Shown here piece after piece: positions 1 through 51,157 of a DNA stretch of 51,533 nucleotides. Where the stretch lies: IMG/VR virus record IMGVR_UViG_2711768018_000019. One strand, 5' to 3'. The notes under the pieces were generated by a model. The model had not been told where the DNA came from. It made no database searches and saw only the letters and a program-made list of their open reading frames with translations. Origin of the DNA: a virus (Duplodnaviria > Heunggongvirae > Uroviricota > Caudoviricetes). The translations under genes and the position numbers were made by a program. Position 1 is the stretch's first letter; each line of letters opens with the position of its first letter.

Positions 1-573
1 ATGTTTTGCGAAGAAAAAGTAGCTCAAATGGCTGCATACCTACTTCTTAAGCGAGGTGGGCGCATGGCATATCTGAAATTGATGAAGCTGCTCTATCTGT
101 CTAACCGCAAGTCGATTTTGAAGCATGGCAGGATGATCGGCGAAGATAGCCTTTACTCTATGAAATTTGGTCCAGTCATGTCGAATACGCTGAACTTGAT
201 TCGTGGTAAGGCTGAAGGTATTGGTGACTACTGGTACAACCTGATAGAGACGAACGGGCATGATGTGTTGTTGCGTTCAGATCCGAGGGAAATGGATGCA
301 GACGAGGTCTTTGATGAGTTGAGCCGTGCAGATATCCGGATTTTAGATGAAATCTATTCTCTGTATGGGCATATGAACCGATTTGATCTCGCAAACATGA
401 CGCATTTAGAAAGCGTTTGTCCAGAGTGGCACAATCCTGGCAATTCTCGTAAGCCTATAGACCTGAAAGAAATGCTGATCAGTGAGGGTAAAAGCGAGGA
501 TGAGGCTAATCGTATAATTGGCAAAATGGAAGAATCTCAGAAACTTAAGGAATTTTCTTTGCAATTATCATGA
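1..573 (+). CDS. Panacea-domain (DUF4065, SocA/GepA-like) protein, putative antitoxin; may be 5'-truncated by the window edge
   Basis: 190-aa ORF with an N-terminal motif (YLKLMKLLYL ... GEDSLYSMKFGPV) that I recall as typical of DUF4065/Panacea proteins. Its stop overlaps the next ORF's start (ATGA). Confidence 0.5.
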   Translation: MFCEEKVAQMAAYLLLKRGGRMAYLKLMKLLYLSNRKSILKHGRMIGEDSLYSMKFGPVMSNTLNLIRGKAEGIGDYWYNLIETNGHDVLLRSDPREMDADEVFDELSRADIRILDEIYSLYGHMNRFDLANMTHLESVCPEWHNPGNSRKPIDLKEMLISEGKSEDEANRIIGKMEESQKLKEFSLQLS

Positions 574-989
574 CGGATTATCAGCCATACAGGAAAGGAA
601 CTGTGCTTGCCCCAACTGGGCCATGCAATCATCTTCATGTGATTTGTAATGATCCTGTTTATTACCCCGTTAACGATTGTTATTGTGTTTTAGTTGTTAA
701 TATTTCTAGTATCAAGGATGGTGTCCCCCACGATCCGTCTTGCGTCTTGAATTCTGGTGATCATCGCTTTATCAAGCATCCAAGTTATGTTGTTTACGCT
801 GAAGCTATAATTTGGCGAGTGGATAACATGGTTAGAAAGCAGCGATCGGGTGAGATTTCCGTTCATGATGATATGCCAGAAGCTACATTCAATAGAATTC
901 TGGACGGTTTTGATATATCTGATGAAGTTACGCCAAAGAACCTTAAATTTAAAAATAAATATTGCGTATCATCTATTGATGATGAGTAA
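570..989 (+). CDS. Hypothetical protein, candidate toxin partner of the Panacea protein
   Basis: 139-aa ORF, Cys/His-rich, no family recognised. Start overlaps the upstream stop by 4 nt, which suggests translational coupling. Confidence 0.4.
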   Translation: MTDYQPYRKGTVLAPTGPCNHLHVICNDPVYYPVNDCYCVLVVNISSIKDGVPHDPSCVLNSGDHRFIKHPSYVVYAEAIIWRVDNMVRKQRSGEISVHDDMPEATFNRILDGFDISDEVTPKNLKFKNKYCVSSIDDE

Positions 990-1249: not shown

Positions 1250-1531
1250 TTAGTGATGTTCTTTGCCCTTCTGTTTGCCTGTTCTGACCTGTTCCCACTC
1301 GATACGTCCTTCTTCTCGTCTTTTGTCTATGTATTCCGCAAGATCCTGAATATTGATGCAACGTTTTGCTTTTTGTGATGTACCGATGCGATATGTAGGT
1401 ACAGGCAACTTACAAGCGTTTGCTTTTGCTTCTGCTGTGGCTGGACTCATACCAAAGTATTTTTGACTAACTGCTGAGAGTTCAATGTTTGGGGTATTGA
1501 ATTCAGCCATCAGTAAAAACAAGGTATTCAT
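1250..1531 (-). CDS. PrtN-family (pyocin-activator-like) phage transcriptional regulator
   Basis: 93-aa ORF starting MNTLFLLMAEF and ending ...IQDLAEYIDKRREE, which matches my recollection of the PrtN/pyocin-activator family of small prophage regulators. Confidence 0.5.
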   Translation of the reverse strand: MNTLFLLMAEFNTPNIELSAVSQKYFGMSPATAEAKANACKLPVPTYRIGTSQKAKRCINIQDLAEYIDKRREEGRIEWEQVRTGKQKGKEHH

Positions 1532-1567
1532 ATCATTTCTCCATCATAACCGGCTGCACCCGGTGAG

Positions 1568-2401
1568 TTACTTATTCATTTCAATAATATTATTTTCTAT
1601 CATTGATTTATTTAAAACCAAAGAAGGAGCAAGATGGTTGTCTATTTTAAACAATGCATAACTTTTAAACTGTTGGTGATATCCGTAACTAATAAGGATG
1701 CTAGAAAAATCTCTTAATTCATCTTCTTTTAAAAAATTAAAATGAAATGGGTTGTCACCATTTATGAACAATGAAACATCTATTATGCAGTATTTCTCTC
1801 CGTTGTCATTTGCATAGAAAAAAATATAAGACATTCTGTTTGTTAAGACAATGCCATTAAATTTTCTTATGTCTGTAGCTATTTTGTTTTCCATGTTTGG
1901 TGCTACATATTTATTTTCAGAAATACATTTAATTTCATCTCCAGATGTCGTGATTATATAAAAATGAAACTTATCAGAAATATCTAACTTAACTACGCCA
2001 TCATTATTGTAAAGGCTGCTAAATTTTGGTGGTTCAACTTTTAAAGAATCATAGTTCTTTAAAAGAAGAGGGGAGTCAAATTTAATAACTTGTAGTATCC
2101 CTTTACCTTCAACCTCCATATTGATTGAAGATATAGCAATTGCATTATCTCTTTTATTATTCAGGATTATGGTTGATATATGCATGTCATATATTCTACT
2201 TGCATTTGCTGAATACGACACTGTCACCTTTTTTGATATTTTTTGCACGCCAAAATATATAGTGAAGGCAGCGGCAAGAATAGATAAGAATTTAATGTCA
2301 AATAAGGACCATAGCCACATTAGTTGCTCAATTGCTTCAGAGTTAATCATTTGCTTTACCATTATCGCTGTAATACAACACATGTGTGTATATATACGCA
2401 A
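1568..2401 (-). CDS. AT-rich hypothetical membrane-anchored protein (possible superinfection-exclusion or abortive-infection function)
   Basis: 277-aa ORF in a markedly AT-rich segment, with a hydrophobic N-terminal helix (FLSILAAAFTIYFGV) and a Lys/Asn/Ile-rich body. Exact start is uncertain among several Met codons. Confidence 0.45.
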   Translation of the reverse strand: MRIYTHMCCITAIMVKQMINSEAIEQLMWLWSLFDIKFLSILAAAFTIYFGVQKISKKVTVSYSANASRIYDMHISTIILNNKRDNAIAISSINMEVEGKGILQVIKFDSPLLLKNYDSLKVEPPKFSSLYNNDGVVKLDISDKFHFYIITTSGDEIKCISENKYVAPNMENKIATDIRKFNGIVLTNRMSYIFFYANDNGEKYCIIDVSLFINGDNPFHFNFLKEDELRDFSSILISYGYHQQFKSYALFKIDNHLAPSLVLNKSMIENNIIEMNK

Positions 2402-2538
2402 TGCAATTATTTTGCAAGTGCTTCATTTACTATCAATAGCTACGTCACGTTATTGTTTAATGGTTCTTTATAGGGGCGGCAATAGTTAAAATTATCGCTT
2501 CCGTAAATGCCCCCGCAGGGGCATTTGCAGTAATGAAA

Positions 2539-3363
2539 TCAGGCGGTGAAAGTACCAATAAAGGTTTCTACTTTGCTGTCTTTGAATTTCTCAACAAGCA
2601 GATCACGAAATTCGTTAGCCATTTCTTCCTGTACCGCTTCCAGCTGAATAATGCGCAGAACCAGTACAGGACGATCGCCAGTGATAATGCTGAGGCGTAA
2701 TTTAAACGGACGTTCTTTCAGACCTTCAAACGGAACGCATTTAAATTCAAATGCCACTGGCATAATGTCTTTGGTCTTCGCTTCGACAGACTCCATCAGG
2801 GAGCGTTTGCCGCTGAAGTCATTATCTTCAAAATCAGCGGTCTGGTTCGCTTCAATTGTGATTTTACGGATCGCCGCAGCCGCTTTGGTTGCCTGAATGG
2901 CGTCACCATTAGCATCAAAGCCCACAAGGTAGTCGGCCCAGTCTTCAATCCATTCTGCCAGTGACTTCTGGGAGTTACGCTCGCCATTAACAGACAACAG
3001 AGCAGAGAACGGAGCTGTCTTTTTCAGTTTGAGAGTGGCGGTGTTATCTGCGTGACCTGGTTCATCAATAGTACCCAGGTTAAGAACACTGACGGCACGC
3101 ATATTATCAGCATCGATAAAGCAGCGGGTGCCTTCATCTGCAAGATCTTTAGAATAACGAGTAAAGTCATCGATGCTGGCAGTGGAAAGCGCACCACGGA
3201 AACGGAAACGATTTAAATTTAATTTTTCCAGATCATGAATGCGGAAATTCTCAGGCAATGCCACAGCATCGGCACCAATCTTACTGATAATTTCATTAAC
3301 ACCCTGAGCAGAAATAAGGGCATGGATTTGATTAATTGCGGTTGCGTCTAAGTTCTGAGACAT
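2539..3363 (-). CDS. YfdQ-like DUF2303 prophage protein
   Basis: 274-aa ORF beginning [21 protein letters not shown]. Size and sequence match my recollection of the YfdQ/DUF2303 family of lambdoid early-left-operon proteins. Confidence 0.5.
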
Positions 3364-4477: not shown

Positions 4478-5152
4478 TTAGGCCTTTATTATGTATCTTC
4501 TTGGTTTTCCTGAGAAAATCACTGTACCAATTATAGAGCAATTACCGTTAATCTTAATGTAAGGCTCAGGCCAGTTTGGGTTTAATGCTTTGAGATAACG
4601 CTGTGTTCCATCTTCTATCAACCGCTTGAAGGTGGTTTCGCCTGTATCGTGCATCAATGCAATAACGTCGTCACCGTGGCAGGCAGGGACTTCAGGATCA
4701 ACAAAAATCATGTCTCCCGGGCGGTACTCATCAATCATTGAATCACCAATCACCCGCAAGATATAAGTCATTTCGCCACAGGGTACAGGGCAGGGATAAG
4801 TTTCTGCTGTGCTCAAATCAACCTCAGAATAGCCAACTTCTTTCCATGCTCCGGCCTGTACCCATGATATGACAGGGACTAACGTTATTTGTTTGTTAGT
4901 GATTGAAACGTCAGGTTTTTTTGTGATGTTCGTTGTCTGGTGTTCTTGATCAAGCCATCCGACAGGCAGGTCGAAACATTTTTCGATGTGCCGTGCCATG
5001 CTGTCACCGATATTTTTAGTTGCACCATCTCCCATAAACCTGCTGGTCTGGGTTGGCTCGCGATCAATCATGGTGGCAAAGGAAGAATTCCCGCCAACAC
5101 CATCTCTCAGTTTTCTGGCGTTAGACCGCCGGATGTCATGGACTGTTTTCAT
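4478..5152 (-). CDS. cI: CI-type prophage repressor (HTH plus S24 LexA-like peptidase domain)
   Basis: 224 aa. N-terminal HTH region and a C-terminal S24 signature with Ser in GDSM (VIGDSMIDEYRPGDMIFVD) and a downstream Lys (TTFKRL). Divergent from the Cro-like gene across an operator region. Confidence 0.8.
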   Translation of the reverse strand: MKTVHDIRRSNARKLRDGVGGNSSFATMIDREPTQTSRFMGDGATKNIGDSMARHIEKCFDLPVGWLDQEHQTTNITKKPDVSITNKQITLVPVISWVQAGAWKEVGYSEVDLSTAETYPCPVPCGEMTYILRVIGDSMIDEYRPGDMIFVDPEVPACHGDDVIALMHDTGETTFKRLIEDGTQRYLKALNPNWPEPYIKINGNCSIIGTVIFSGKPRRYIIKA

Positions 5153-5474: not shown

Positions 5475-6038
5475 ATGAGGCTAACCGTGGGTAAGCATCA
5501 CTGGAAAGTAGAAAAACAGCCTGAGTGGTACGTGAAAGCTGTCAGAAAAACTATCGCGGCGTTGCCGGGGGGTTACGCTGAAGCTGCTGAGTGGCTGGAT
5601 GTAACAGAGAACGCTTTATTCAACCGCCTTCGTGCAGATGGCGATCAGATTTTCCCGCTGGGATGGGCAATGATTTTACAGCGCGCGGCTGGCACTCACT
5701 ACATTGCGGATGCTGTCGCACAGTCTGCTGGTGGGGTGTTTGTATCGCTTCCTGAAATTGAGGAAGTAGAGAACGCCGATATAAACCAGCGCCTGCTGGA
5801 AGTCATCGAACAGATCGGGAGTTACTCAAAGCAGATTCGTTCGGCAATCGAAGATGGGGTAGTGGAGCCACACGAGCAGACAGCAATTAATGATGAGTTG
5901 TATCTGTCAATTTCGAAGCTCCAGGAGCATGCAGCACTGGTCTACAAAATCTTTTGCGCTCCAGAAAAGAGTGACGCCCGCGAGTGTGCAGCTCCGGGCG
6001 TCGTGGCGTTTTGTGTCTGTGGAGAAACTAACGCATGA
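5475..6038 (+). CDS. YdaT/CII-like early regulatory protein
   Basis: 187-aa ORF immediately after the Cro-like gene, which is the conserved YdaS-YdaT arrangement. Assignment rests on position and general resemblance only. Confidence 0.4.
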   Translation: MRLTVGKHHWKVEKQPEWYVKAVRKTIAALPGGYAEAAEWLDVTENALFNRLRADGDQIFPLGWAMILQRAAGTHYIADAVAQSAGGVFVSLPEIEEVENADINQRLLEVIEQIGSYSKQIRSAIEDGVVEPHEQTAINDELYLSISKLQEHAALVYKIFCAPEKSDARECAAPGVVAFCVCGETNA

Positions 6039-6871
6039 ACAGTTTAACGGCAAATAACCGTTTGTCGCAACAGCTGGTGGTCAGCGTCGCTGAACACCTG
6101 TTGTTACGGCATGAATGCAGATTACCAAATCACCTGGCTGTAAGTAACCACAGAGAACTTTACCTGACTGTGGGGGGCGAGTTGTGCAGGAACTTAACCG
6201 CTGGTTTCGTGACGGAAGAGGACTTTATGTTCATGTTATTCGTTGGGAGCCAGAAACACAGCGCGTTATCTATCTTCGCAAAGACTACCCGCATGAGTGC
6301 TTTAGTCCTTTGTGGAAATTCAGGCGTGATTTTGTTGAGTGTGAAGGACCACCAGCACATTGATTCTGCCATTCCGGGACGTTACACTGTTCAGGCACCT
6401 TATAAAGCGGGTGCCGGGATTGGCGTCCTGGAATTGATCAAGGCGATATATGACGCGCCAGCGTCTTTTTTATCGTCCGCATTTGCTCACATCAAAGTTA
6501 TGGTGGGCTGGGCGGGGGCATCGAAAGATGCGCCGGTTTCCTTGATCACCGGTTACGCCAACCCCGTTCAGTTCACCACCAGCGAAATTGGCGTTTCCGG
6601 TGGTGGAAGTATTTCACCGATCAAGGAGGCTGCCATCATGGCTACTGTCCCAGCCCTCACTCGTCTGAATGATGAAGACTTACATAAACTCAGTTATGTA
6701 ACAACTGCACTACGTGCTCTGCGCAAGGTAACTCTTTCGGATCCGCAGGCACATCAGGTTCTGGTAGAAACCCTTCTTAACTTGCAAGCTGAACGTATTC
6801 GTCTGGCGGATAAGGCTAATTTTCATATTCACCGTCTCCTGAATATCAGCGGAGGGCATCGTCATGCTTAA
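6035..6871 (+). CDS. Hypothetical protein; ORF may be composite or contain a frameshift
   Basis: 278-aa open frame. A GTG-initiated alternative frame (about 6186-6365, with GGGGGG RBS) encodes a more protein-like peptide, and an internal ATG at 6638 has a strong AAGGAGG RBS. Confidence 0.3.
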   Translation: MNSLTANNRLSQQLVVSVAEHLLLRHECRLPNHLAVSNHRELYLTVGGELCRNLTAGFVTEEDFMFMLFVGSQKHSALSIFAKTTRMSALVLCGNSGVILLSVKDHQHIDSAIPGRYTVQAPYKAGAGIGVLELIKAIYDAPASFLSSAFAHIKVMVGWAGASKDAPVSLITGYANPVQFTTSEIGVSGGGSISPIKEAAIMATVPALTRLNDEDLHKLSYVTTALRALRKVTLSDPQAHQVLVETLLNLQAERIRLADKANFHIHRLLNISGGHRHA

Positions 6872-32128: not shown

Positions 32129-34124
32129 ATGGGTAAAGGCAGCAGTAAGGGGCATACCCCGCGCGAAGCAAAGGACAACCTGAAGTCCACGCAGTTGCTG
32201 AGTGTGATCGATACCATCAGCGAAGGGCCGGTTGAAGGTCCGGTGGATGGATTAAAAAGCGTGCTGCTGAACAGTACACCGGTGCTGGACAGTGAGGGGA
32301 ATACCAACATCTCTGGTGTCACGGTGGTGTTCCGGGCAGGTGAGCAGGAACAGACACCGCCGGAGGGATTTGAATCATCAGGTTCCGAGACGGTACTGGG
32401 TACGGAAGTGAAATACGACACGCCGATCACCCGGACCATCACGTCGGCAAACATTGACCGACTGCGTTTTACCTTCGGTGTACAGGCACTGGTGGAAACC
32501 ACCTCAAAGGGAGACAGGAATCCGTCTGAAGTTCGCCTGCTGGTTCAGATACAGCGTAACGGTGGCTGGGTGACGGAAAAAGACATCACCATTAAGGGCA
32601 AAACCACCTCGCAGTATCTGGCCTCGGTGGTGGTGGGTAACCTGCCGCCGCGCCCGTTCAATATACGGATGCGCAGGATGACGCCGGACAGCACCACAGA
32701 CCAGCTGCAGAACAAAACGCTCTGGTCGTCATACACCGAAATCATCGATGTGAAACAGTGCTACCCGAACACGGCACTGGTCGGCGTGCAGGTGGATTCG
32801 GAGCAGTTCGGCAGCCAGCAGGTGAGCCGTAATTATCATCTGCGCGGGCGCATTCTGCAGGTGCCGTCGAGCTATAACCCGCAGACGCGGCAATACAGCG
32901 GTATCTGGGACGGAACGTTTAAGCCAGCATACAGCAACAACATGGCCTGGTGTCTGTGGGATATGCTGACCCATCCGCGCTACGGCATGGGGAAACGTCT
33001 TGGTGCGGCGGATGTGGACAAATGGGCGCTGTATGTCATCGGCCAGCATTGCGATCAGTCGGTGCCGGACGGTTTTGGCGGCACGGAGCCGCGCATCACC
33101 TGTAATGCGTACCTGACCACACAGCGCAAGGCGTGGGATGTGCTCAGTGATTTCTGCTCGGCGATGCGCTGTATGCCGGTATGGAACGGGCAGACGCTGA
33201 CGTTCGTGCAGGACCGACCGTCGGATAAGGTGTGGACCTATAACCGCAGTAATGTGGTGATGCCGGATGATGGTGCGCCGTTCCGCTACAGCTTCAGCGC
33301 CCTGAAGGACCGCCATAATGCCGTTGAGGTGAACTGGATTGACCCGAATAACGGCTGGGAGACGGCGACAGAGCTTGTGGAGGACACGCAGGCCATTGCC
33401 CGTTACGGTCGTAACGTCACGAAGATGGATGCTTTTGGCTGTACCAGCCGGGGGCAGGCACACCGCGCCGGGCTGTGGCTGATTAAAACAGAACTGCTGG
33501 AAACGCAGACCGTGGACTTCAGCGTGGGTGCCGAAGGGCTTCGCCATGTACCGGGCGATGTCATTGAAATCTGCGATGATGACTATGCCGGTATCCGCAC
33601 CGGCGGGCGCGTGCTGGCGGTAAACAGCCAGACCCGGACGCTGACGCTCGACCGTGAAATCACGCTGCCATCTTCCGGCACCACGCTGATAAGCCTGGTT
33701 GACGGGCAGGGGAGTCCGGTCAGCGTGGAGGTTCAGTCCGTCACCGACGGCGTGAAGGTGAAAGTGAGCCGTGTTCCTGACGGCGTTGCTGAATACAGCG
33801 TATGGGGGCTGAAGCTGCCGACGCTGCGCCAGCGCCTGTTCCGCTGCGTGAGTATCCGTGAGAACGACGACGGCACGTATGCCATCACTGCCGTGCAGCA
33901 TGTACCGGAAAAAGAGGCCATCGTGGATAACGGGGCGCACTTTGACGGCGACCAGAGCGGCACGGTAAATGGTGTCACGCCGCCAGCGGTGCAGCACCTG
34001 ACCGCAGAAGTCACCGCAGACAGCGGGGAATACCAGGTGCTGGCCCGCTGGGACACGCCGAAGGTGGTGAAGGGCGTGAGCTTCCTGCTTCGCCTGACCG
34101 TGGCAGCGGATGACGGCCGTGAGC
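32129..34124 (+). CDS. J: Tail tip/host-specificity protein J (copy 1), 3' end lost in an assembly gap
   Basis: MGKGSSKGHTPREAKDNLKSTQLLSVIDTISEGPVEGPVDGLKSVLLNSTPVLDSEGNTNISGV ... matches lambda gpJ; the coding sequence runs into the N-run at 34125. Confidence 0.85.
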
Positions 34125-34374
34125 NNNNNNNNNNNNNNNNNNNNNNNNNNNNNNNNNNNNNNNNNNNNNNNNNNNNNNNNNNNNNNNNNNNNNNNNNNNN
34201 NNNNNNNNNNNNNNNNNNNNNNNNNNNNNNNNNNNNNNNNNNNNNNNNNNNNNNNNNNNNNNNNNNNNNNNNNNNNNNNNNNNNNNNNNNNNNNNNNNNN
34301 NNNNNNNNNNNNNNNNNNNNNNNNNNNNNNNNNNNNNNNNNNNNNNNNNNNNNNNNNNNNNNNNNNNNNNNNNN
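34125..34374. other. Assembly gap (250 N)
   Basis: Run of n characters in the sequence. Confidence 1.
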
Positions 34375-34375
34375 G

Positions 34376-35209
34376 AGCGATACCGAAGCGTCACGGCTGA
34401 AATATACCGAAGAGGCGCAGAAGGCTTACGAACGGCTGCAGACGCCGCTGGAGAAATATACCGCCCGTCAGGAAGAACTGAACAAGGCACTGAAAGACGG
34501 GAAAATCCTGCAGGCGGATTACAACACGCTGATGGCGGCGGCGAAAAAGGATTATGAAGCGACGCTGAAAAAGCCGAAACAGTCCGGCGTGAAGGTGTCT
34601 GCGGGCGATCGTCAGGAAGACAGTGCTCATGCTGCCCTGCTGACGCTTCAGGCAGAACTCCGGACGCTGGAGAAGCATGCCGGAGCGAATGAGAAAATCA
34701 GCCAGCAGCGCCGGGATTTGTGGAAGGCAGAAAGTCAGTTCGCGGTACTGGAGGAGGCGGCACAACGTCGCCAGCTGTCCGCACAGGAGAAATCCCTGCT
34801 GGCGCATAAAGACGAGACGCTGGAGTACAAACGCCAGCTGGCTGCACTTGGTGACAAGGTTACGTATCAGGAGCACCTGAATGCGCTGGCGCAGCAGGCG
34901 GATAAATTCGCACAGCAGCAACGGGCAAAACGGGCAGCCATTGATGCGAAAAACCGGGGGCTGACTGACCGGCAGGCAGCGCGGGAAGCCACGGAACAGC
35001 GTCTGAAGGAACAGTATGGCGATAATCCGCTGGCGCTGAATAACGTCATGTCAGAGCAGAAAAAGACCTGGGCGGCTGAAGACCAGCTTCGCGGGAGCTG
35101 GATGGCAGGCCTGAAGTCCGGCTGGAGTGAGTGGGAAGAGAGCGCCACGGACAGTATGTCACAGGTTAAAAGTGCAGCCACGCAGACCTTTGATGGTATT
35201 GCACAGAAT
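34376..35209 (+). CDS. H: Tape-measure protein H, internal fragment of a second lambda-like copy, bounded by gaps
   Basis: SDTEASRLKYTEEAQKAYERLQTPLEKYTARQEELNKALKDGKILQADYNTLMAAAKKDYE ... matches the middle of lambda gpH, sitting between two N-runs. Confidence 0.8.
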
Positions 35210-35514
35210 NNNNNNNNNNNNNNNNNNNNNNNNNNNNNNNNNNNNNNNNNNNNNNNNNNNNNNNNNNNNNNNNNNNNNNNNNNNNNNNNNNNNNNNNNNN
35301 NNNNNNNNNNNNNNNNNNNNNNNNNNNNNNNNNNNNNNNNNNNNNNNNNNNNNNNNNNNNNNNNNNNNNNNNNNNNNNNNNNNNNNNNNNNNNNNNNNNN
35401 NNNNNNNNNNNNNNNNNNNNNNNNNNNNNNNNNNNNNNNNNNNNNNNNNNNNNNNNNNNNNNNNNNNNNNNNNNNNNNNNNNNNNNNNNNNNNNNNNNNN
35501 NNNNNNNNNNNNNN
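35210..35514. other. Assembly gap (305 N)
   Basis: Run of n characters. Confidence 1.
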
Positions 35515-35811
35515 TTTGTCTTCACGAAGGAGGCAACCAGCCGGATTGGCGTGGGGAATCTCTACCGGCTGATGCGCGGCTATGCGGAAGGTGGTTATGT
35601 GGGCGGTGCCGGAAGTCCGGCGCAGATGCGGCGGGCTGAAGGCATTAATTTTAATCAGAACAATCACGTGGTGATTCAGAACGACGGTACGAATGGTCTG
35701 CCAGGTCCACAGATGATGAAGGCCGTGTATGACATGGCCCGCAAGGGTGCCCGTGATGAAATTCAGACACAGATGCGTGATGGTGGCCTGTTCTCCGGAG
35801 GTGGACGATGA
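35515..35811 (+). CDS. H: Tape-measure protein H, C-terminal fragment (copy 2)
   Basis: FVFTKEATSRIGVGNLYRLMRGYAEGGYVG ... IQTQMRDGGLFSGGGR matches the lambda gpH C-terminus; stop overlaps the ATG of M'. Confidence 0.8.
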   Translation, partial: FVFTKEATSRIGVGNLYRLMRGYAEGGYVGGAGSPAQMRRAEGINFNQNNHVVIQNDGTNGLPGPQMMKAVYDMARKGARDEIQTQMRDGGLFSGGGR

Positions 35812-37261: not shown

Positions 37262-37498
37262 NNNNNNNNNNNNNNNNNNNNNNNNNNNNNNNNNNNNNNN
37301 NNNNNNNNNNNNNNNNNNNNNNNNNNNNNNNNNNNNNNNNNNNNNNNNNNNNNNNNNNNNNNNNNNNNNNNNNNNNNNNNNNNNNNNNNNNNNNNNNNNN
37401 NNNNNNNNNNNNNNNNNNNNNNNNNNNNNNNNNNNNNNNNNNNNNNNNNNNNNNNNNNNNNNNNNNNNNNNNNNNNNNNNNNNNNNNNNNNNNNNNNN
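37262..37498. other. Assembly gap (237 N), flanked by near-identical 114-bp segments
   Basis: Sequence 37148-37261 and 37499-37612 are the same K-gene segment with about 6 substitutions, i.e. overlapping contig ends from non-identical alleles. Confidence 1.
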
Positions 37499-38233: not shown

Positions 38234-39593
38234 ATGGGTAAAGGCAGCAGTAAGGGGCATACCCCGCGCGAAGCGAAGGACAACCTGAAGTCCACGCAGC
38301 TGCTGAGTGTGATCGATGCCATCAGCGAAGGGCCGGTTGAAGGTCCGGTGGATGGATTAAAAAGCGTGCTGCTGAACAGTACGCCGGTGCTGGACAGTGA
38401 GGGGAATACCAACATCTCCGGCGTCACGGTGGTGTTCCGGGCAGGTGAGCAGGAGCAGTCACCGCCGGAGGGATTTGAATCCTCCGGCTCCGAGACGGTG
38501 CTGGGTACGGAAGTGAAATATGACACGCCGATCACCCGGACCATCACGTCGGCAAACATTGACCGACTGCGTTTTACCTTCGGTGTACAGGCACTGGTGG
38601 AAACCACCTCAAAGGGGGACAGGAATCCATCGGAAGTCCGCCTGCTGGTTCAGATACAGCGTAACGGTGGCTGGGTGACGGAAAAAGACATCACCATTAA
38701 GGGCAAAACCACCTCGCAGTATCTGGCCTCGGTGGTGGTGGATAACCTGCCGCCGCGCCCGTTTAATATCCGGATGCGCAGAATGACGCCGGACAGCACC
38801 ACAGACCAGCTGCAGAACAAAACGCTCTGGTCGTCATACACCGAAATCATCGATGTGAAACAGTGCTACCCGAACACGGCACTGGTCGGCGTACAGGTGG
38901 ATTCGGAGCAGTTCGGCAGCCAGCAGGTGAGCCGTAATTATCATCTTCGCGGGCGCATTCTGCAGGTGCCGTCGAACTATAATCCGCAGACGCGGCAATA
39001 CAGCGGTATCTGGGACGGAACGTTAAAACCGGCATACAGCAACAACATGGCCTGGTGTCTGTGGGATATGCTGACCCATCCGCGCTATGGCATGGGGAAA
39101 CGTCTTGGTGCGGCAGATGTGGATAAATGGGCGCTGTATGTCATCGGCCAGTACTGTGACCAGTCGGTGCCGGACGGCTTTGGCAGCACGGAGCCGCGCA
39201 TCACCTGTAATGCCTGGCTGACCACACAGCGCAAGGCGTGGGATGTGCTCAGTGATTTCTGCTCGGCGATGCGCTGTATGCCGGTATGGAACGGGCAGAC
39301 GCTGACGTTCGTGCAGGACCGACAGTCGGATAAGGTGTGGGCCTATAACCGCAGTAATGTGGTGATGCCGGATGATGGCGCGCCGTTCCGCTACAGTTTC
39401 AGCGCCCTGAAAGACCGCCATAATGCCGTTGAGGTGAACTGGATTGACCCGGATAACGGCTGGGAGACGGCGACAGAGCTTGTGGAGGATACGCAGGCCA
39501 TTGTCCGTTACGGTCGTAACGTCACGAAGATGGATGCCTTTGGCTGTACCAGCCGGGGGCAGGCACACCGCGCCGGGCTGTGGCTGATTAAAA
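38234..39593 (+). CDS. J: Tail protein J (copy 2), N-terminal part up to a gap
   Basis: Near-identical to copy-1 J and to lambda gpJ; interrupted by an N-run. Confidence 0.85.
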
Positions 39594-39915
39594 NNNNNNN
39601 NNNNNNNNNNNNNNNNNNNNNNNNNNNNNNNNNNNNNNNNNNNNNNNNNNNNNNNNNNNNNNNNNNNNNNNNNNNNNNNNNNNNNNNNNNNNNNNNNNNN
39701 NNNNNNNNNNNNNNNNNNNNNNNNNNNNNNNNNNNNNNNNNNNNNNNNNNNNNNNNNNNNNNNNNNNNNNNNNNNNNNNNNNNNNNNNNNNNNNNNNNNN
39801 NNNNNNNNNNNNNNNNNNNNNNNNNNNNNNNNNNNNNNNNNNNNNNNNNNNNNNNNNNNNNNNNNNNNNNNNNNNNNNNNNNNNNNNNNNNNNNNNNNNN
39901 NNNNNNNNNNNNNNN
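39594..39915. other. Assembly gap (322 N)
   Basis: Run of n characters. Confidence 1.
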
Positions 39916-39917
39916 CT

Positions 39918-40353
39918 GAATACAGCGTGTGGGGGCTGAAGCTGCCGACGCTGCACCAGCGATTGTTCCGCTGCGTGAGTATCCGTGAGAACGACGACGG
40001 CACGTATGCCATCACCGCCGTGCAGCATGTGCCGGAAAAAGAAGCCATCGTGGATAACGGGGCGCACTTTGACGGCGACCAGAGCGGCACGGTGAATGGT
40101 GTCACGCCGCCAGCGGTGCAGCACCTGACTGCCGAAGTCACCGCAGACAGCGGGGAATATCAGGTGCTGGCGCGCTGGGACACGCCGAAGGTGGTGAAGG
40201 GCGTGAGCTTCCTGCTCCGTCTGACCGTAACAGCGGATGACGGCAGTGAGCGGCTGGTCAGCACGGCCCGGACGACGGAAACCACTTACCGCTTCACACA
40301 ACTGGCGCTGGGGAACTACAGGCTGACAGTCCGGGCAGTAAATGCGTGGGGGC
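39918..40353 (+). CDS. J: Tail protein J (copy 2), middle fragment
   Basis: EYSVWGLKLPTLHQRLFRCVSIRENDDGTYAITAVQHVPEKEAIVDNGAHFDG... matches the lambda gpJ central region. Confidence 0.85.
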
Positions 40354-40396
40354 NNNNNNNNNNNNNNNNNNNNNNNNNNNNNNNNNNNNNNNNNNN
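40354..40396. other. Assembly gap (43 N)
   Basis: Run of n characters. Confidence 1.
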
Positions 40397-40398
40397 CC

Positions 40399-41673
40399 CC
40401 GGCAGCGCCGTCGCGGATTGAGCTGACGCCGGGCTATTTTCAGATAACCGCCACGCCGCATCTTGCGGTTTATGACCCGACGGTACAGTTTGAGTTCTGG
40501 TTCTCGGAAAAACGGATTGCGGATATCAGGCAGGTTGAAACCAGCGCGCGTTATCTTGGTACGGCACTGTACTGGATAGCCGCCAGTATCAATATCAAAC
40601 CGGGCCATGATTATTACTTTTATATCCGCAGTGTGAACACCGTCGGCAAATCAGCATTCGTGGAGGCTGTCGGTCGGGCGAGCGATGATGCGGAAGGTTA
40701 CCTGGATTTTTTCAAAGGCCAGATAACCGAATCCCATCTCGGCCAGGAGCTGCTGGAAAAAGTCGACCTGACGGAGGATAACGCCAGCAGACTGGAGGAG
40801 TTTTCGAAAGAGTGGAAGGACGCCAACGATAAGTGGAATGCCATGTGGGGCGTCAAAATTGAGCAGACCAAAGACGGCAAACATTATGTCGCGGGTATTG
40901 GCCTCAGCATGGAGGACACGGAGGAAGGCAAACTGAGCCAGTTTCTGGTTGCCGCTAACCGTATCGCGTTTATTGACCCGGCAAACGGGAATGAAACGCC
41001 GATGTTTGTGGCGCAGGGCAACCAGATATTCATGAATGACGTGTTCCTGAAACGCCTGACGGCTCCCACCATTACCAGCGGTGGAAATCCGCCGGCATTT
41101 TCCCTGACACCAGACGGAAAGCTGACCGCTAAAAATGCGGATATCAGCGGTAATGTGAATGCAAATTCAGGGACGCTCAACAATGTCACGATTAACCAGA
41201 ACTGTACGATTAAGGGCATGCTGGAGGCGACCCAGGTCAGAGGAGATTTCGTTAAAGCTGTATCAAAAGCCTTCCCGAAAAAAGTCGGTACGTGGGGTAA
41301 CACGGAAACACCAAACGGTACGGTTACAGTCACCATCAGCGATGATCATAACTTTGACCGCCAGATTATTATTCCGCCCATTATTTTTAACGGTATAGCG
41401 TATGACGATCCGGGGAGCGGAAATAACCCAGGAGGCACGCGATACACGGGTTATGGTTTTGAAGTTCGCAAAAACGGCGTATTAATCGCATCCAGAGAAA
41501 CTAAAGGGGCCATTCCCGGTAGTTACAGTGCAGTTATTGATATGCCGAGTGGCAGGGGAAGCGTCACTCTGGAGTTTAAGATTTTCCAGAAAGGCAATCA
41601 GGGGGCAGGCAATATCACCGACTGTACGGTGATTGTGACCAAAAAAGCCGCTTCCGGCATCAGTATTCGTTGA
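40399..41673 (+). CDS. J: Tail protein J (copy 2), C-terminal receptor-binding part
   Basis: [38 protein letters not shown] ... [10 protein letters not shown] matches the lambda gpJ C-terminus. Confidence 0.85.
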
Positions 41674-41743: not shown

Positions 41744-42343
41744 ATGCGTAAAGTTTGTGCAGCAATTTTGTCCGCAGCCATTTGTCTGGCCGTATCCGGT
41801 GCGCCTGCATGGGCGTCTGAACATCAGTCCACGCTGAGCGCGGGGTATCTTCATGCCCGGACGAACGTTCCCGGCAGTGATGATCTGAACGGGATTAACG
41901 TGAAATACCGTTATGAGTTTACGGACACACTGGGGCTGGTGACGTCGTTCAGCTATGCAGGAGACAAGAATCGCCAGCTGACCCGTTACAGCGATACCCG
42001 CTGGTATGAAGATTCCGTGCGTAACCGCTGGTTCAGCGTGATGGCGGGGCCGTCTGTGCGCGTGAATGAATGGTTCAGCGCGTATGCGATGGCGGGTGTG
42101 GCTTACAGCCGTGTGTCGACTTTTTCCGGGGATTATATCCGCGTAACTGACAATAAGGGGAAAACGCACGATGTGCTGACCGGAAGTGATGACGGTCGCC
42201 ACAGCAACACGTCTCTGGCGTGGGGAGCTGGCGTGCAGTTTAACCCGACCGAATCCGTGGCCATTGATATTGCTTATGAAGGCTCCGGCAGTGGCGACTG
42301 GCGCACTGACGGTTTCATCGTGGGTGTCGGTTATAAATTCTGA
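41744..42343 (+). CDS. lom: Lom outer-membrane protein (Ail/Lom family)
   Basis: Signal peptide plus beta-barrel; the C-terminus IDIAYEGSGSGDWRTDGFIVGVGYKF is identical to the lambda Lom C-terminus as I recall it. Confidence 0.85.
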   Translation: MRKVCAAILSAAICLAVSGAPAWASEHQSTLSAGYLHARTNVPGSDDLNGINVKYRYEFTDTLGLVTSFSYAGDKNRQLTRYSDTRWYEDSVRNRWFSVMAGPSVRVNEWFSAYAMAGVAYSRVSTFSGDYIRVTDNKGKTHDVLTGSDDGRHSNTSLAWGAGVQFNPTESVAIDIAYEGSGSGDWRTDGFIVGVGYKF

Positions 42344-45400: not shown

Positions 45401-45806
45401 TAAATCCACGAATAACACTGGTGCGCATACCCATAGTTTAAGTGGCAGCACGAATGCAGCTGGTAATCACAGCCATAGAGATGGCCGTCGATTTAACCCC
45501 AGTGTTTTTAAAGATACTTATCAATATGGTTATACAAGCTCAGGTCAAAATACCTGGGGTGTACAAGGCTCAGTAGGTATGTCTACGGGGTGGTTAGCGA
45601 ATACCAGTACAGATGGTAATCATAGCCACTCACTGTCCGGCACAGCAGCATCTGCAGGTGCACACGCGCATACTGTCGGTATTGGTGCTCATACGCACTC
45701 CGTTGCGATTGGTTCACATGGACATACCATCACCGTTAACGCTGCGGGTAACGCGGAAAACACCGTCAAAAACATCGCATTTAACTATATTGTGAGGCTT
45801 GCATAA
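42408..45806 (+). CDS. stf: Side tail fibre protein Stf
   Basis: About 1130 aa. [79 protein letters not shown] matches K-12 StfR-type fibres as I recall them; long Ala/Ser/Thr repeat region; C-terminal His-rich repeats (GAHTHS, GNHSHS). Confidence 0.85.
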
Positions 45807-46390
45807 TGGCATTCAGAATGAGTGAACAACCACGGACCATAAAAATTTATAATCTGCTGACCGGAACTAATGAATTTATTGGTGAAGGTGACGCATATAT
45901 TCCGCCTCATACAGGTCTGCCAGCAAACAGTACCTATATTGCACCGCCAGATATTCCGGCTGGCTTTGTGGCTGTTTTCAACAGTGATGAGGCATCGTGG
46001 CATCTCGTTGAAGACCATCGGGGTAAAACGGTTTATGACGTAGCGTCAGGGGACGCGTTATTTATTTCTGAACTCGGTCCGTTACCGGAAAATGTTACCT
46101 GGTTATCCCCGGAAGGGGAGTTTCAGAAGTGGAACGGCACAGCCTGGGTGAAGGATACGGAAGCAGAAAAACTGTTCCGGATCCGGGAGGCGGAAGAAAC
46201 AAAAAACAGCCTGATGCAGGTAGCCAGTGAGCATATAGCGCCACTTCAGGATGCTGTAGATCTGGAGATCGCAACGGAGGAAGAAAACTCGTTGCTGGAA
46301 GCCTGGAAGAAGTATCGGGTGTTGCTGAACCGTGTTGATACATCAACTGCACCTGATATTGAGTGGCCTGCGGTCCCTGTTATGGAGTAA
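45806..46390 (+). CDS. tfa: Tail fibre assembly protein Tfa
   Basis: 194 aa directly after stf; the N-terminal [58 protein letters not shown] is characteristic of the Tfa family. Confidence 0.8.
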
Positions 46391-46502: not shown

Positions 46503-47873
46503 CTATGATATCCCTGAAATGTCCTCTTCAAGCTCTTTTACTGATTTCGCAATTTTAAATTTAAATTTTCTCTCTATTTCACTATTGCTAAGTTTTTTTT
46601 CATTCTCTTTCCCTATCCACATAGAAACAATTTCTCGTTTCTGAGATATATGTAGATTGTCAAAGTTAGGTATGTATTTAAAAGTCTCCGCTCTACCCCT
46701 GCGGAGTTCATAGAAAGTTTTAATCAAAGACTTTGGTTTTATTTCTGATGAAAGGCCGAATCGGCGGATAAGATTATTGATCGTATGATTAACAGCTCGA
46801 AGTTGAGCTGTTGACGTTATTTGTGAGAAGTACGATACCCATCCCAATCGTTTACCTTCAAACACACATCCCGTAATTCTAAGATTTAGTTTCCACTGAC
46901 AATATGCAACAGCTCGTTCTTTATCGCGCTTATTTTTAGCTTGTAGTAGAGCGTGTCTATATGCAGTAAAAATTTTTGCTAAGGATGACTCAAATCTAAG
47001 AATGCTCTCATGTTTTATCAATAATTCTCGATTTTTTATGTGGTAGCCCAAAAAGTTGAAACTTTCATCCAAGCTGCCTACTTTGGATTTTGAGTTCTCT
47101 TCATTTAATGGATGTGGGTTTAAATTTAATGATTGAAGCTTATCAATGATATGAGAAGCTATTTTTGTTGCTTGATATTTTGGTGTTAAAATAAGAATGT
47201 CATCAACGTATCGCATGTACCATATGTCATGCATTTTATTGATTTCATCATCGAAATTAGATAGTGATATTTCAGCTAAAATGTTTGATATCGCTAATCC
47301 CTGAGGTACTCCTCTGGTATTATTAGGGATACCTTTGCTTCCTGTGGTTCCACTTACAGTAGGCACGATTAATGATGATGTTATTAACTGTCTAATTTCT
47401 TTTTTTCTAATTTTATTTTTTATTGCATTAATTATCAATTTATGTTCAATTGAAGGATAGAAACTTTTAAGATCTATTTTTGCATATTCAGCATATAGAC
47501 TGTTGTTTAATGCTTCTTTCAATGAGTCAATTACTGTATGTGGTAGTTTTAATCTGGACTTAGGATATATTTCCGTAAGGCATTCACAGAGAGCTCTAAG
47601 AGTAATTCTGTCCCTAGCAGTTGGTATGGAAATCTGTCTGGGTGTAGAGTTAGCGCCTTTAGATATTAATTTTTCTTTATATGCTGTAAATTTGTAATTG
47701 CCAGAATTAACCTTTTCAAAAATGAAAGTGATCTCATTTTTTATTGTCAAATCAAGTTTTGATGGGCGAATCCGATCTATGCCAATCGCTCCTGATTCTT
47801 TGATTTTTTCAGAGTATACTTTTAGAAGATTTTTTTTCGAGAATGACTTTTTAAAAATTCTGCTTGCAGTCAT
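46503..47873 (-). CDS. Reverse transcriptase (defence-associated, retron/UG/Abi-like; unclassified)
   Basis: 456 aa from the ATG at 47873..47871. RT motifs: RQISIPTARDRI (motif 1), AKIDLKSFYPSI (motif 2), RGVPQGLAISNILAEI (QG motif), YMRYVDDILIL (YxDD active site), FLGYHI (thumb). AT-rich; start overlaps the upstream gene's 3' end. Confidence 0.8.
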   Translation of the reverse strand: MTASRIFKKSFSKKNLLKVYSEKIKESGAIGIDRIRPSKLDLTIKNEITFIFEKVNSGNYKFTAYKEKLISKGANSTPRQISIPTARDRITLRALCECLTEIYPKSRLKLPHTVIDSLKEALNNSLYAEYAKIDLKSFYPSIEHKLIINAIKNKIRKKEIRQLITSSLIVPTVSGTTGSKGIPNNTRGVPQGLAISNILAEISLSNFDDEINKMHDIWYMRYVDDILILTPKYQATKIASHIIDKLQSLNLNPHPLNEENSKSKVGSLDESFNFLGYHIKNRELLIKHESILRFESSLAKIFTAYRHALLQAKNKRDKERAVAYCQWKLNLRITGCVFEGKRLGWVSYFSQITSTAQLRAVNHTINNLIRRFGLSSEIKPKSLIKTFYELRRGRAETFKYIPNFDNLHISQKREIVSMWIGKENEKKLSNSEIERKFKFKIAKSVKELEEDISGIS

Positions 47874-48402
47874 AGTCAATCCAAAGATATATTAATGGGA
47901 GTATATAAAGTGCGGCAGTAATAAATATTCGAAGTAATATCCATAAAATAACAATTATTTTTTCTTTTTGTGTGGGGATCCTCGTCTTAAGTCCAACTTG
48001 AGTTACCCTTGAAATTTTATCATCTATGTCACGGTGATTCTCAACCTCATTGAGCAAATTAAAATATTTTTCTTTCTGTTCAAGAGATAACTGTTGACTG
48101 GTGGTAATGTCAAAATAGAGTCGCTGTAGTGCAATATAATTCCTTCTCATGGCTATTGCTCGACCACGAAAATCTAGGTTAGATACGATCAGAGAAATAC
48201 CCAGTAGAGCCACTGAAAGTATCGCCGCAACGACATCTGTATTATCTCCTAGAACCTTTGGAAATCGCAACGTTACAATTGAAAGTACCGCACTCAATAT
48301 AGCATACCAAACGAGGATAAATTGAGAGTGTTTTTCAAGCCATTCTAGTCGATGGTGCGCTTGGATACGTGCTTTATATGTAAACCAAATATTGTCATGC
48401 AT
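47851..48402 (-). CDS. Small multi-TM membrane protein (SLATT-like candidate effector) co-transcribed with the RT
   Basis: 183 aa, RBS aagga. Two adjacent TM helices (FILVWYAILSAVLSIVTL; VVAAILSVALLGISLIVS) and a third at the C-terminus (IIVILWILLRIFITAALYILPLIYLW). Its 3' end overlaps the RT start by about 23 nt. Confidence 0.6.
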   Translation of the reverse strand: MHDNIWFTYKARIQAHHRLEWLEKHSQFILVWYAILSAVLSIVTLRFPKVLGDNTDVVAAILSVALLGISLIVSNLDFRGRAIAMRRNYIALQRLYFDITTSQQLSLEQKEKYFNLLNEVENHRDIDDKISRVTQVGLKTRIPTQKEKIIVILWILLRIFITAALYILPLIYLWIDYDCKQNF

Positions 48403-50031: not shown

Positions 50032-50119
50032 TACACGACCTCGTTATTTCGGGTTCCCATAAAGCGTGGGAACCTGTGCGGGAACCTAACGCGAGAAAAA
50101 TAGCCTGAAATGTTCAAAA

Positions 50120-51157
50120 ATGCACGATAATCCTGAAACACAGAAAACTAATCAAACCAGCGTGATGCCTGAAAAAACTGGCGCTTACTGGAGTTCTCGG
50201 TTTAGCATTGCTCCTATGCTCGACTGGACGGACAGACATTGCCGCTATTTCTTGCGTCTGCTTTCCCGCAATACGTTGCTGTATACCGAAATGGTGACCA
50301 CAGGGGCGATTATTCACGGTAAAGGTGATTACCTGGCGTACAGTGAAGAAGAACATCCGGTAGCGTTGCAACTCGGCGGTAGCGATCCGGCGGCGCTGGC
50401 ACAGTGTGCGAAGCTGGCAGAAGCGCGTGGATATGATGAGATCAACCTGAATGTCGGCTGCCCGTCTGACCGGGTGCAGAACGGCATGTTTGGTGCGTGT
50501 CTGATGGGTAATGCGCAGCTGGTTGCCGACTGCGTGAAAGCGATGCGCGATGTGGTGTCGATTCCAGTGACGGTGAAAACGCGTATTGGCATCGATGACC
50601 AGGACAGCTATGAATTTCTCTGCGATTTCATCAACACCGTTTCCGGCAAAGGCGAGTGTGAGATGTTTATCATCCACGCACGTAAAGCCTGGCTTTCGGG
50701 GTTAAGCCCGAAAGAAAACCGTGAAATCCCGCCACTCGATTATCCGCGTGTGTATCAACTGAAGCGTGACTTTCCGCATCTGACAATGTCGATTAACGGT
50801 GGTATCAAGTCGCTGGAAGAGGCCAAAGCACACCTGCAACATATGGATGGCGTGATGGTCGGGCGCGAGGCGTATCAGAATCCGGGTATTCTGGCGGCGG
50901 TAGACCGGGAGATCTTTGGTTCCTCGGATACCGATGCCGATCCGGTGGCGGTAGTGCGCGCCATGTATCCGTACATTGAGCGTGAACTCAGCCAGGGGAC
51001 GTATCTCGGCCATATTACCCGGCATATGTTGGGCTTGTTCCAGGGTATTCCTGGCGCGCGGCAGTGGCGGCGTTATTTAAGTGAAAATGCCCATAAAGCG
51101 GGTGCAGACATTAATGTGCTGGAACACGCGCTCAAACTGGTGGCGGATAAGCGTTAA
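50120..51157 (+). CDS. dusA: tRNA-dihydrouridine synthase A
   Basis: 345 aa; TIM-barrel Dus family ([22 protein letters not shown] ... NLNVGCPS ... catalytic Cys region). The first ~25 codons are probably prophage-derived. Confidence 0.9.

What the first reader, a model, noticed from the sequence alone, without database searches (positions are those of the whole stretch)
1568..2401. Strongly AT-rich membrane-anchored ORF in the early-left operon (superinfection-exclusion or Abi-like candidate)
Seen in sequence: a 277-aa ORF with a hydrophobic N-terminal helix and Lys/Asn/Ile-rich composition lies in a segment whose base composition is clearly lower in GC than the flanking phage genes. Established knowledge: the early-left operon of lambdoid phages is a classic site for Sie, Rex and Abi-type morons, and anomalous composition marks horizontal acquisition. 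No family recognised.
Basis: partly seen in the sequence, partly recalled or inferred. Interest (0 to 1): 0.5.

Follow-up and report, generated by a model that had tools for sequence, protein, structure and literature searches.

The report
Membrane-anchored orphan gene in prophage cargo slot
A very AT-rich, horizontally acquired prophage gene encodes a well-folded, membrane-anchored protein of an unnamed family that repeatedly sits in the anti-phage cargo slots of phages, satellites and plasmids, which makes it a reasonable but untested candidate for a new phage-exclusion protein.

Summary
An ORF ends at 1568 on the minus strand. Its family-consistent start is ATG 2350 (260 aa), not TTG 2401 (277 aa). 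At 29% GC it is the most AT-rich gene-sized stretch of the window (z = -3.25). It lies between yfdQ and a PrtN-type excisionase in the early-left arm of an SfV/lambdoid-like E. coli prophage.

No Pfam, NCBIfam or PADLOC family matches; only PHROG 14996, of unknown function. A profile search found about 220 clusters of similar architecture, most about 240-275 aa.

- **Structure:** the AlphaFold model (pLDDT 94) shows one N-terminal membrane helix, an Ig-like beta-sandwich and an alpha/beta C-terminal domain. No specific match in PDB or BFVD.
- **Topology:** charge bias in 123 of 125 members predicts N-terminus out, globular part in the cytoplasm.
- **Context:** relatives are solitary cargo with no recurring partner. 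Sites include the P2 gpA-gpQ defence hotspot, next to a retron II-A, next to AbiLi, upstream of integrases in P4-like islands, nin regions and small plasmids.
- **Evolution:** dN/dS is 0.33-0.36, against 0.03-0.04 for its neighbours.

Best reading (about 0.45): a stand-alone, inner-membrane-tethered phage-exclusion or abortive-infection protein. The function is inferred, not shown.

The parts
1568..2350 (-). Coding sequence of the 260-aa protein, stop codon included. The maximal ORF from TTG 2401 adds 17 residues that homologues lack.
   Evidence: GC 0.290; dN/dS 0.33-0.36
2246..2314 (-). Residues about 13-35: the single transmembrane helix with the conserved F29/Y32/F33 face, followed by K37. 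Basic residues follow it (QKISKK).
   Evidence: In 123 of 125 members K+R after the helix exceeds K+R before it (mean 2.66 against 0.30).
1916..2230 (-). Residues 41-145: Ig-like beta-sandwich domain carrying the near-invariant N65, D68, P94, K98, E101, S111 and C142.
2144..2158 (-). NKRDN motif (residues 65-69). The family consensus is N-K-K/R-D-K/N; N65 is conserved in 99% of 125 members.
1571..1885 (-). Residues 156-260: C-terminal alpha/beta domain, with conserved N165, G166, Y175, Y179, N205 and the family-level G at column 194.
2351..2500 (-). AT-rich upstream non-coding region that travels with the gene. It holds weak sigma-70-like sites: TTGATA-16-CAAAAT at 2436..2409 and TACACA-18-GATAAT at 2390..2361.
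   Evidence: Found in exactly the same 99 E. coli genomes as the gene. The promoter-like sites are no more frequent than in shuffles. Similarity to the Citrobacter upstream region is weak (z 2.9).
2505..2526 (-). GC-rich hairpin just after yfdQ (AAAUGCCCC-UGCG-GGGGCAUUU). It belongs to the conserved yfdQ module and marks the right-hand edge of the inserted module.
   Evidence: dG -19.4 kcal/mol, z -3.3. This stretch matches many phages at about 94% identity, and one of them annotates it as a terminator.
1539..1564 (-). Junction between the gene and xis: the small palindrome ACCGGGTGCAGCCGGT plus the GGAG ribosome-binding site of xis. No terminator-like site lies between the two genes, so they are presumably co-transcribed.
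   Evidence: Nearly the same junction follows the 64%-identical Citrobacter homologue.
1250..1531 (-). PrtN-family excisionase, the downstream neighbour and left edge of the slot.
   Evidence: PF11112 E 3e-23 and phrog_1300 excisionase
2539..3363 (-). YfdQ/DUF2303 gene, the upstream neighbour and right edge of the slot.
   Evidence: PF10065 E 8e-93

Best explanation
The ORF is a stand-alone, horizontally mobile accessory gene that has replaced the usual genes between yfdQ and xis in the early-left arm of this prophage.

It encodes a single-pass inner-membrane protein. A short acidic N-terminus faces the periplasm. The membrane helix is unusually conserved in sequence. About 220 residues lie in the cytoplasm: an Ig-like beta-sandwich followed by an alpha/beta domain.

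The most likely function is protection of the lysogen, or of any cell carrying the mobile element, against other phages, working on its own at the inner face of the cytoplasmic membrane. Two versions are possible. It could interfere with incoming genome entry or an early membrane-associated step. Or its cytoplasmic domains could sense a phage component and, through the conserved membrane helix, perturb the membrane as an abortive infection.

Shown here: gene reality, composition, mosaic insertion, family size, predicted fold, the charge bias that predicts topology, solitary occurrence, and location in cargo and defence hotspots.

Inferred: topology, expression, any anti-phage activity, and which of the two mechanisms applies.
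For: **Acquired module**
- It has the lowest GC of the window.
- The gene plus 150 nt upstream occur in the same 99 of 5426 genomes, while the flanks are common.
- SfV, mEp460 and Stx2a phages carry other genes in this slot.

**Real, folded family**
- 223 clusters reach E <= 1e-3 in 1.84 billion representatives, with the same length and architecture.
- The model has pLDDT 94.1 and pTM 0.82.

**Topology**
- 123 of 125 members have more K+R after the helix than before it.
- The defence protein SNIPE has this same N-out/C-in single-pass layout, shown experimentally (PMC13190303).
- The helix and juxtamembrane segment are among the most conserved parts of the protein.

**Contexts of relatives**
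- L032: between portal gpQ and replication gpA of a P2-like phage. This is the old/tin defence hotspot defined by Rousset et al. 2022 (PMC9122126).
- L005/L006: convergent with a retron II-A RT plus NDT effector.
- L044: beside AbiLi, between the lysis genes and int.
- L050: in a P4-alpha-primase island with a methyl-directed restriction enzyme, upstream of int.
- L033: in an island with a HEPN protein and the candidate defence gene HEC-08.
- L052: 2.6 kb from an OLD-like ATPase.
- It also occurs on small plasmids, which argues against a function tied to the phage lytic cycle.

**Other points**
- No partner gene recurs within 4 kb on either side.
- dN/dS is about ten times that of the neighbours at similar dS.
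- The only other AT-rich island of the window is a recognised defence system, DRT UG17 plus SLATT.
Against: - No phenotype is known, and there is no homology to any known defence, Sie or Abi family.
- Cargo slots of mobile elements also hold toxin-antitoxin pairs, virulence genes and genes of unknown role, so the association is suggestive only. I measured no background rate.
- Only about 6 of roughly 13 distinct contexts have a recognised defence gene within 5 kb.
- No convincing promoter of its own was found, and no terminator separates it from xis. It may therefore be expressed only after induction rather than in the lysogen.
- Some copies are inactivated by IS1 or frameshift.
- None of 50,697 deposited phage genomes carries it.
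Confidence: 0.45

Rival explanations
1. It is an early lytic-cycle accessory protein of the phage itself: host take-over, protection of the infected cell during the lytic cycle, or modulation of a host membrane process. It would be expressed only from the early-left or early-right operon after induction and would not defend the lysogen.
For: - It is co-oriented with the pL-type operon and embedded in it, with no terminator before xis.
- In the Klebsiella and L052 prophages the homologue sits co-oriented in the nin-like early-right region.
- The promoter-like sites upstream are no better than chance.
Against: - Homologues occur on small non-phage plasmids and in integrative islands and satellites that have no lytic programme of their own.
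- The gene is absent from most relatives of this phage and from all 50,697 deposited phage genomes.
Confidence: 0.2
2. It is a classical periplasm-facing superinfection-exclusion protein (N-in/C-out signal anchor). Its Ig-like domain would block a receptor, or the tape-measure or ejection machinery, from outside the inner membrane, as HK97 gp15 or Sie2009-type proteins do.
For: - It has an N-terminal helix followed by an Ig-like sandwich, a lollipop shape that matches exported archaeal pilins and archaellins and pilus chaperones in fold searches.
- Ig-like domains are common outside the cell.
Against: - The positive-inside bias is strong and family-wide in the opposite direction.
- The N-tail is short and acidic.
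- There is no signal-peptide n-region, lipobox or prepilin motif.
- C142, 91% conserved, would be a free cysteine in members with a single Cys (26 of 125); the median after the helix is two.
Confidence: 0.1
3. It is a lysogenic-conversion or host-fitness factor unrelated to phages (envelope stress, colonisation, competition), or a selfish or neutral passenger that is slowly decaying.
For: - Cargo slots also carry such genes.
- Disrupted copies exist: an IS1 insertion in strain E89 and frameshifted fragments P0131 and P0028.
- dN/dS of 0.33-0.36 is relaxed compared with the neighbours.
Against: - A conserved architecture across about 220 clusters and several gamma-proteobacterial genera, with near-invariant residues and a confident fold, argues against a neutral passenger.
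- The repeated placement in defence hotspots is not expected for a colonisation factor.
Confidence: 0.15

Closest known systems
PHROG 14996 (phage orthologous group, function unknown)
   Same: Full-length match over 260 of 260 profile positions, E 2.9e-178. This is the same family.
   Different: The group carries no annotation, so membership says nothing about function.
SNIPE, the membrane-bound nuclease that cleaves phage DNA during injection (Saxton et al., Nature 2026, PMC13190303)
   Same: It is a single-protein system in E. coli with the same layout: a short periplasmic N-terminus, one membrane helix and cytoplasmic domains. It is the precedent for defence acting at the inner face of the membrane.
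   Different: SNIPE is defined by DUF4041 and a GIY-YIG nuclease. Neither is detected here. The cytoplasmic part here is an Ig-like sandwich plus an alpha/beta domain with no nuclease signature. It is not a member.
P2 old and tin, and other cargo of the P2 gpA-gpQ hotspot and the P4 psu-int hotspot (Rousset et al. 2022, PMC9122126)
   Same: A 30%-identical relative sits exactly between gpQ and gpA of a P2-like phage (L032). A 64%-identical relative sits upstream of int in an island with a P4-alpha-type primase and a restriction enzyme (L050).
   Different: There is no sequence relation to Old (ATPase-Toprim) or Tin. Whether the Rousset survey listed or tested this family was not checked; its supplementary tables were not searched.
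Prophage superinfection-exclusion membrane proteins (lambda/P22 SieB, P22 SieA, T4 Imm, HK97 gp15) and the RexAB-type Abi
   Same: These are small membrane proteins encoded in accessory positions of temperate phages. The early-left arm is where lambda sieB lies (own knowledge). One relative's prophage carries a SieB gene 2.4 kb away (L023, PF14163 E 1e-19).
   Different: No Pfam match to SieB or to any other family. The architecture also differs: one helix plus a 220-residue globular part predicted to be cytoplasmic, whereas those proteins are mostly multi-pass or periplasm-facing.
Archaeal type IV pilins and archaellins (8fk7, 9eq7)
   Different: The scores are low, there is no class III signal peptide or prepilin cleavage motif, the predicted orientation in the membrane is opposite, and there is an extra C-terminal domain. 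The resemblance is one of shape only.

Membership tests
PHROG 14996 | Significant full-length match to the profile | tested here: met
   E 2.9e-178, residues 18-277 of the long ORF against profile positions 1-260 of 260
Any Pfam-A or NCBIfam family | Score above the curated cut-off | tested here: not met
   The only hit is Ig_TMEM131L_3 at 16 bits, against a cut-off of 28. NCBIfam gives no hit. No family recurs among 125 members.
Known or candidate anti-phage systems in PADLOC-DB v2.0.0 | Match to a defence protein model | tested here: not met
   No family at E <= 1 for the window protein, and none for the L032 relative. The database dates from 2023, so later systems are not covered.
SNIPE | [quoted passage not shown] | tested here: not met
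   No Pfam hit for either domain. The model shows a beta-sandwich plus an alpha/beta domain.
SNIPE | N-out, single-pass, cytoplasmic C-terminal part | tested here: inconclusive
   Predicted from the charge bias in 123 of 125 members, but not measured.
SieB / T4 Imm type exclusion proteins | Match to PF14163 (SieB) or other Pfam exclusion families | tested here: not met
   By contrast a neighbour gene in L023 does match SieB.
Moron in the sense of Juhala et al. 2000 (own knowledge) | An extra gene between genes that are adjacent in related phages, with deviant base composition | tested here: met
   GC 0.29 against 0.41-0.46 for the flanks. It is present in 99 genomes while the yfdQ end is in about 2340. 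Strictly it replaces other genes (orf30-orf28 in SfV) rather than being a pure insertion.
Moron in the sense of Juhala et al. 2000 (own knowledge) | Own promoter and own terminator | tested here: inconclusive
   The promoter-like sites are at chance level, and the upstream region is only weakly conserved with Citrobacter. No terminator-like site lies between the gene and xis.
Type IV pilin / archaellin | Class III signal peptide with a prepilin-peptidase site, and an exported globular domain | tested here: not met
   There is no conserved G/(F,M)xxxE-type motif in the alignment, and the charge bias predicts the opposite orientation.
Anti-phage defence or exclusion gene (functional class) | Reduces infection by at least one phage when expressed | not testable with these tools
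   Only context evidence is available.

The most novel reading that the evidence does not exclude
The roughly 220-cluster family is a previously unnamed single-protein immune module of mobile elements. It would be a membrane-tethered cytoplasmic sentinel, with a conserved helix, an Ig-like domain and a new alpha/beta domain, that excludes or aborts phage infection at the inner face of the membrane by a mechanism unrelated to nucleases, NTPases or the known pore-forming effectors.
Probability: 0.35. Interest if true: 0.55.

Novelty: new variant of a known kind. Interest (0 to 1): 0.4.

Why it matters
If the gene does exclude phages, it adds a compact 260-aa single-gene system with no recognisable enzymatic domain to the set of defences that work at the membrane, where phage genomes enter the cell. 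That step has few characterised mechanisms.

The family is spread across prophages, P2-like phages, P4-type islands and small plasmids of several gamma-proteobacterial genera (Escherichia, Citrobacter, Klebsiella, Pantoea, Buttiauxella, Acinetobacter, Vibrio). It could therefore affect phage host range and the design of phage therapy.

If it is not a defence gene, it is still a confidently folded orphan family that marks the variable cargo slots of mobile elements.

Tried and rejected
**Searches that found nothing useful**
- Pfam, NCBIfam, PADLOC and a PDB sequence-profile search gave nothing.
- The afdb50 library was not available.
- tblastn against 50,697 phage genomes gave no match.
- Rfam found no RNA family near the gene.
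- The literature search for WP_047654657 gave nothing. The Brenes and Laub prophage-defence screen is not in the searchable library, so earlier testing cannot be excluded.

**Technical limits**
- The search for related loci failed on the wide alignments A2 and A4, which have no sufficiently conserved stretch.
- Several look-ups of distant members returned contigs too short to be informative.

**Ideas tested and dropped**
- A conserved partner gene: none recurs within 4 kb on either side across 19 loci. The 477-aa gene upstream in Citrobacter is specific to that lineage and has no PADLOC match.
- att-site repeats between the zur side and the dusA side: no exact repeat of 12 bp or more.
- A PD-(D/E)xK nuclease or GTPase reading of the NKxD motif. 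I rejected this by inspection: there is no P-loop, the motif sits in a beta-hairpin of an all-beta domain, and the residue order is wrong.
- Apparent low-GC islands at 34.7-35.2 kb and 39.1-39.6 kb are artefacts of runs of N.

Full report
**Observation.** The minus-strand ORF 1568..2401 (277 aa, TTG start) exists as described. Three lines of evidence place the real start at ATG 2350, giving 260 aa. RefSeq annotates it that way in identical prophages (WP_047654657.1). PHROG 14996 aligns end to end with residues 18-277 of the long form (E 2.9e-178). All homologues begin at the equivalent MIN....

The coding sequence has GC 0.290 and GC3 0.264, against 0.455 for yfdQ, 0.411 for xis and 0.453 for cI. 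Among 4603 N-free windows of the same length it is the lowest (mean 0.504, sd 0.066, z -3.25). The protein is rich in Ile, Ser, Asn and Lys and has a hydrophobic N-terminal helix. Against a 93%-identical allele dN/dS is 0.33-0.36, so it is a coding gene under selection. Its neighbours at similar dS show 0.026 (yfdQ) and 0.041 (xis).

**Setting in the window.** The window is an E. coli prophage. On the minus strand a LexA/S24-type repressor (4478-5152), yfdP, yfdQ/DUF2303 (2539-3363), the ORF and a PrtN-family excisionase (1250-1531) follow each other. This is the leftward early arm.

A stable hairpin just after yfdQ (2505-2526, dG -19.4, z -3.3) belongs to the widely shared yfdQ module. The 150 nt between that hairpin and the start codon occur in exactly the same 99 of 5426 complete E. 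coli genomes as the gene. The yfdQ end occurs in about 2340 genomes. In SfV, mEp460 and an Stx2a phage the same slot holds other genes, orf30 to orf28 and others. The gene plus its upstream region is therefore a swapped-in module.

No terminator-like site separates it from xis (36 nt), so it is presumably co-transcribed with xis after induction. The promoter-like sites upstream are no more frequent than in shuffled sequence. Expression in the lysogen is therefore open.

**Family.** Pfam, NCBIfam and PADLOC give nothing. The word-indexed search found only 11 clusters, from E. coli, Citrobacter and Klebsiella. A profile scored against 1.84 billion representatives found 223 clusters at E <= 1e-3 and 141 at <= 1e-10. 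Apart from truncated fragments they are about 235-275 aa long with the same layout.

In a 125-sequence alignment, K37, N65, P94, S111, C142 and a glycine at column 194 are at least 90% conserved. D68, K98, E101 and Y179 are close behind. None of the 125 members hits a recurrent Pfam family, and the profile hits no PDB sequence.

**Structure and topology.** With the deep alignment AlphaFold gives pLDDT 94.1 and pTM 0.82. The model has a helix at 4-16, a helix at 19-38, a beta-sandwich over about 41-145, a variable loop around 147-155 and an alpha/beta domain at 156-260.

In 123 of 125 members there are more Lys+Arg in the 13 residues after the helix than in the 15 before it (mean 2.66 against 0.30). 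The N-tail has a median length of 11 residues and a net negative charge. By the positive-inside rule (established knowledge) the N-terminus is periplasmic and the globular part cytoplasmic. This is a prediction, not a measurement.

The helix and juxtamembrane segment (F29, Y32, F33, K37) are among the most conserved stretches. That suggests the helix does more than anchor the protein.

**Contexts of relatives.** No gene recurs within 4 kb on either side across 19 loci, so the gene works alone or with host partners. The settings are:
- Immediately upstream of xis-int at a prophage end, with a SieB gene 2.4 kb away (L023).
- In an early-left arm, ahead of three DNA methyltransferase-like genes (assigned by eye, not tested) and int (L031).
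- In the nin-like early-right region of Klebsiella and other prophages, one of them 2.6 kb from an OLD-like ATPase (L035, L052).
- Between portal gpQ and replication gpA of a P2-like phage (L032). Rousset et al. define this locus as a defence hotspot holding old and tin (PMC9122126).
- Convergent with a retron II-A RT and NDT effector in Pantoea islands with a P4-alpha-type primase (L005/L006).
- Beside AbiLi, between the lysis genes and int (L044).
- Upstream of int in Citrobacter islands, one with a P4-alpha-type primase and a methyl-directed restriction enzyme (L049-L051).
- In an island with a HEPN protein and HEC-08 (L033).
- On two small Acinetobacter plasmids and a Vibrio plasmid.

tblastn found it in none of 50,697 deposited phage genomes.

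Inside this window the only other AT-rich island (46.3-48.5 kb) is a recognised defence system: DRT UG17 reverse transcriptase plus a SLATT effector, next to the integrase.

**Interpretation.** Mobility across unrelated element types, including plasmids, together with placement in cargo and defence slots, faster protein evolution than the neighbours and solitary occurrence, fits a stand-alone anti-phage gene best. The predicted N-out/C-in layout matches that shown experimentally for SNIPE, which acts on incoming phage DNA at the inner face of the membrane (PMC13190303). This protein has neither DUF4041 nor a nuclease domain, so it may work like such a sentinel but is not a member of that family.

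I put about 0.45 on defence or exclusion by a protein facing the cytoplasm. I cannot choose between blocking an early membrane-linked step and an abortive response through the helix. The rivals are a lytic-cycle accessory function (0.2), a periplasm-facing exclusion protein (0.1) and a non-phage fitness factor or passenger (0.15).

Weaknesses remain. There is no phenotype, no background rate for the context association and no demonstrated promoter. Some copies are inactivated.

**Novelty and score.** The kind of gene, a prophage accessory gene that is a candidate exclusion protein, is familiar. The family, its fold combination and its predicted orientation are not described in any library or paper I could search. 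It is a sound candidate for a plaque assay rather than a surprise. Interest: 0.4.

Noticed in passing
window 1-573 (+) and 570-989 (+): At the prophage edge next to zur lie a SocA/Panacea-domain gene (PF13274, E 1.8e-18) and a 139-aa gene that overlaps it by 4 nt (phrog_19071, no Pfam). This looks like a PanA-type antitoxin with a toxin of unknown family. PADLOC does not recognise either.
   Followed up: partly
window 46503-47879 (-) and 47851-48402 (-): The second AT-rich island is a defence-associated reverse transcriptase system: RT_UG17 (E 1e-158) plus a SLATT membrane effector (E 1.5e-56). It lies between the tail-fibre assembly gene and the integrase at 48934-50031.
   Followed up: yes
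window 48934-51157, against 1250-1531: The integrase lies at the far right end next to a 345-aa ORF (50120-51157) that I read as dusA from memory (not tested), while the excisionase lies at the far left end. In the excised circle the Panacea pair, the target gene and the DRT system would then all cluster within a few kb of the attachment site. I found no exact att repeat of 12 bp or more between the two ends.
   Followed up: partly
window 6395-6471 and 6496-6583 (+): Rfam finds isrK (64 bits) and a C4 antisense RNA (82 bits) inside the 278-aa ORF at 6035-6871; the identical prophage L001 has an ash-family gene annotated over the corresponding stretch. This suggests P1/P7-type antisense immunity control in this prophage.
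   Followed up: no
window 46149-46347 (+): Rfam family IS009 (RF02111) matches at 224 bits, overlapping the 3' end of the 194-aa gene at 45806-46390, just before the DRT island.
   Followed up: no
window 34125-34374, 35210-35514, 37262-37498, 39594-39915, 40354-40396; ORFs 32129-35572 and 38234-41673: The sequence has runs of N, and a near-duplicate of the tail-tip (J-like) gene region with odd fusions. This part of the window looks masked or mis-assembled, and it produces false low-GC signals.
   Followed up: partly
window 1539-1564; L049 6784-6820: The short junction after the gene (ACCGGGTGCAGCCGGT...GGAGAAAT) is nearly identical after the 64%-identical Citrobacter homologue, although the next gene differs. 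It may be a module-boundary sequence used in recombination.
   Followed up: partly
E. coli E89 (NZ_CP121157.1, hit H26); proteins P0131, P0028, P0161: Some copies of the gene are disrupted. There is an IS1X2 insertion in strain E89. Truncated products also occur, one of which (P0131) diverges from the intact protein right after the Q36-K37 codons, within the A-rich stretch CAAAAAATATCAAAAAAGG.
   Followed up: no
L032 8777-9862 (+) and 14301-15224 (+): In the P2-like phage the homologue is followed by a 361-aa predicted membrane protein with no family match. A TIR-like effector (PADLOC, E 2.6e-9) lies next to the integrase.
   Followed up: partly
window 41744-42343 (+): A 199-aa ORF with a signal-peptide-like start lies between the tail-tip and tail-fibre genes. 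By eye it resembles the Lom/Ail outer-membrane family. I ran PADLOC only (no hit) and did not test it against Pfam.
   Followed up: no
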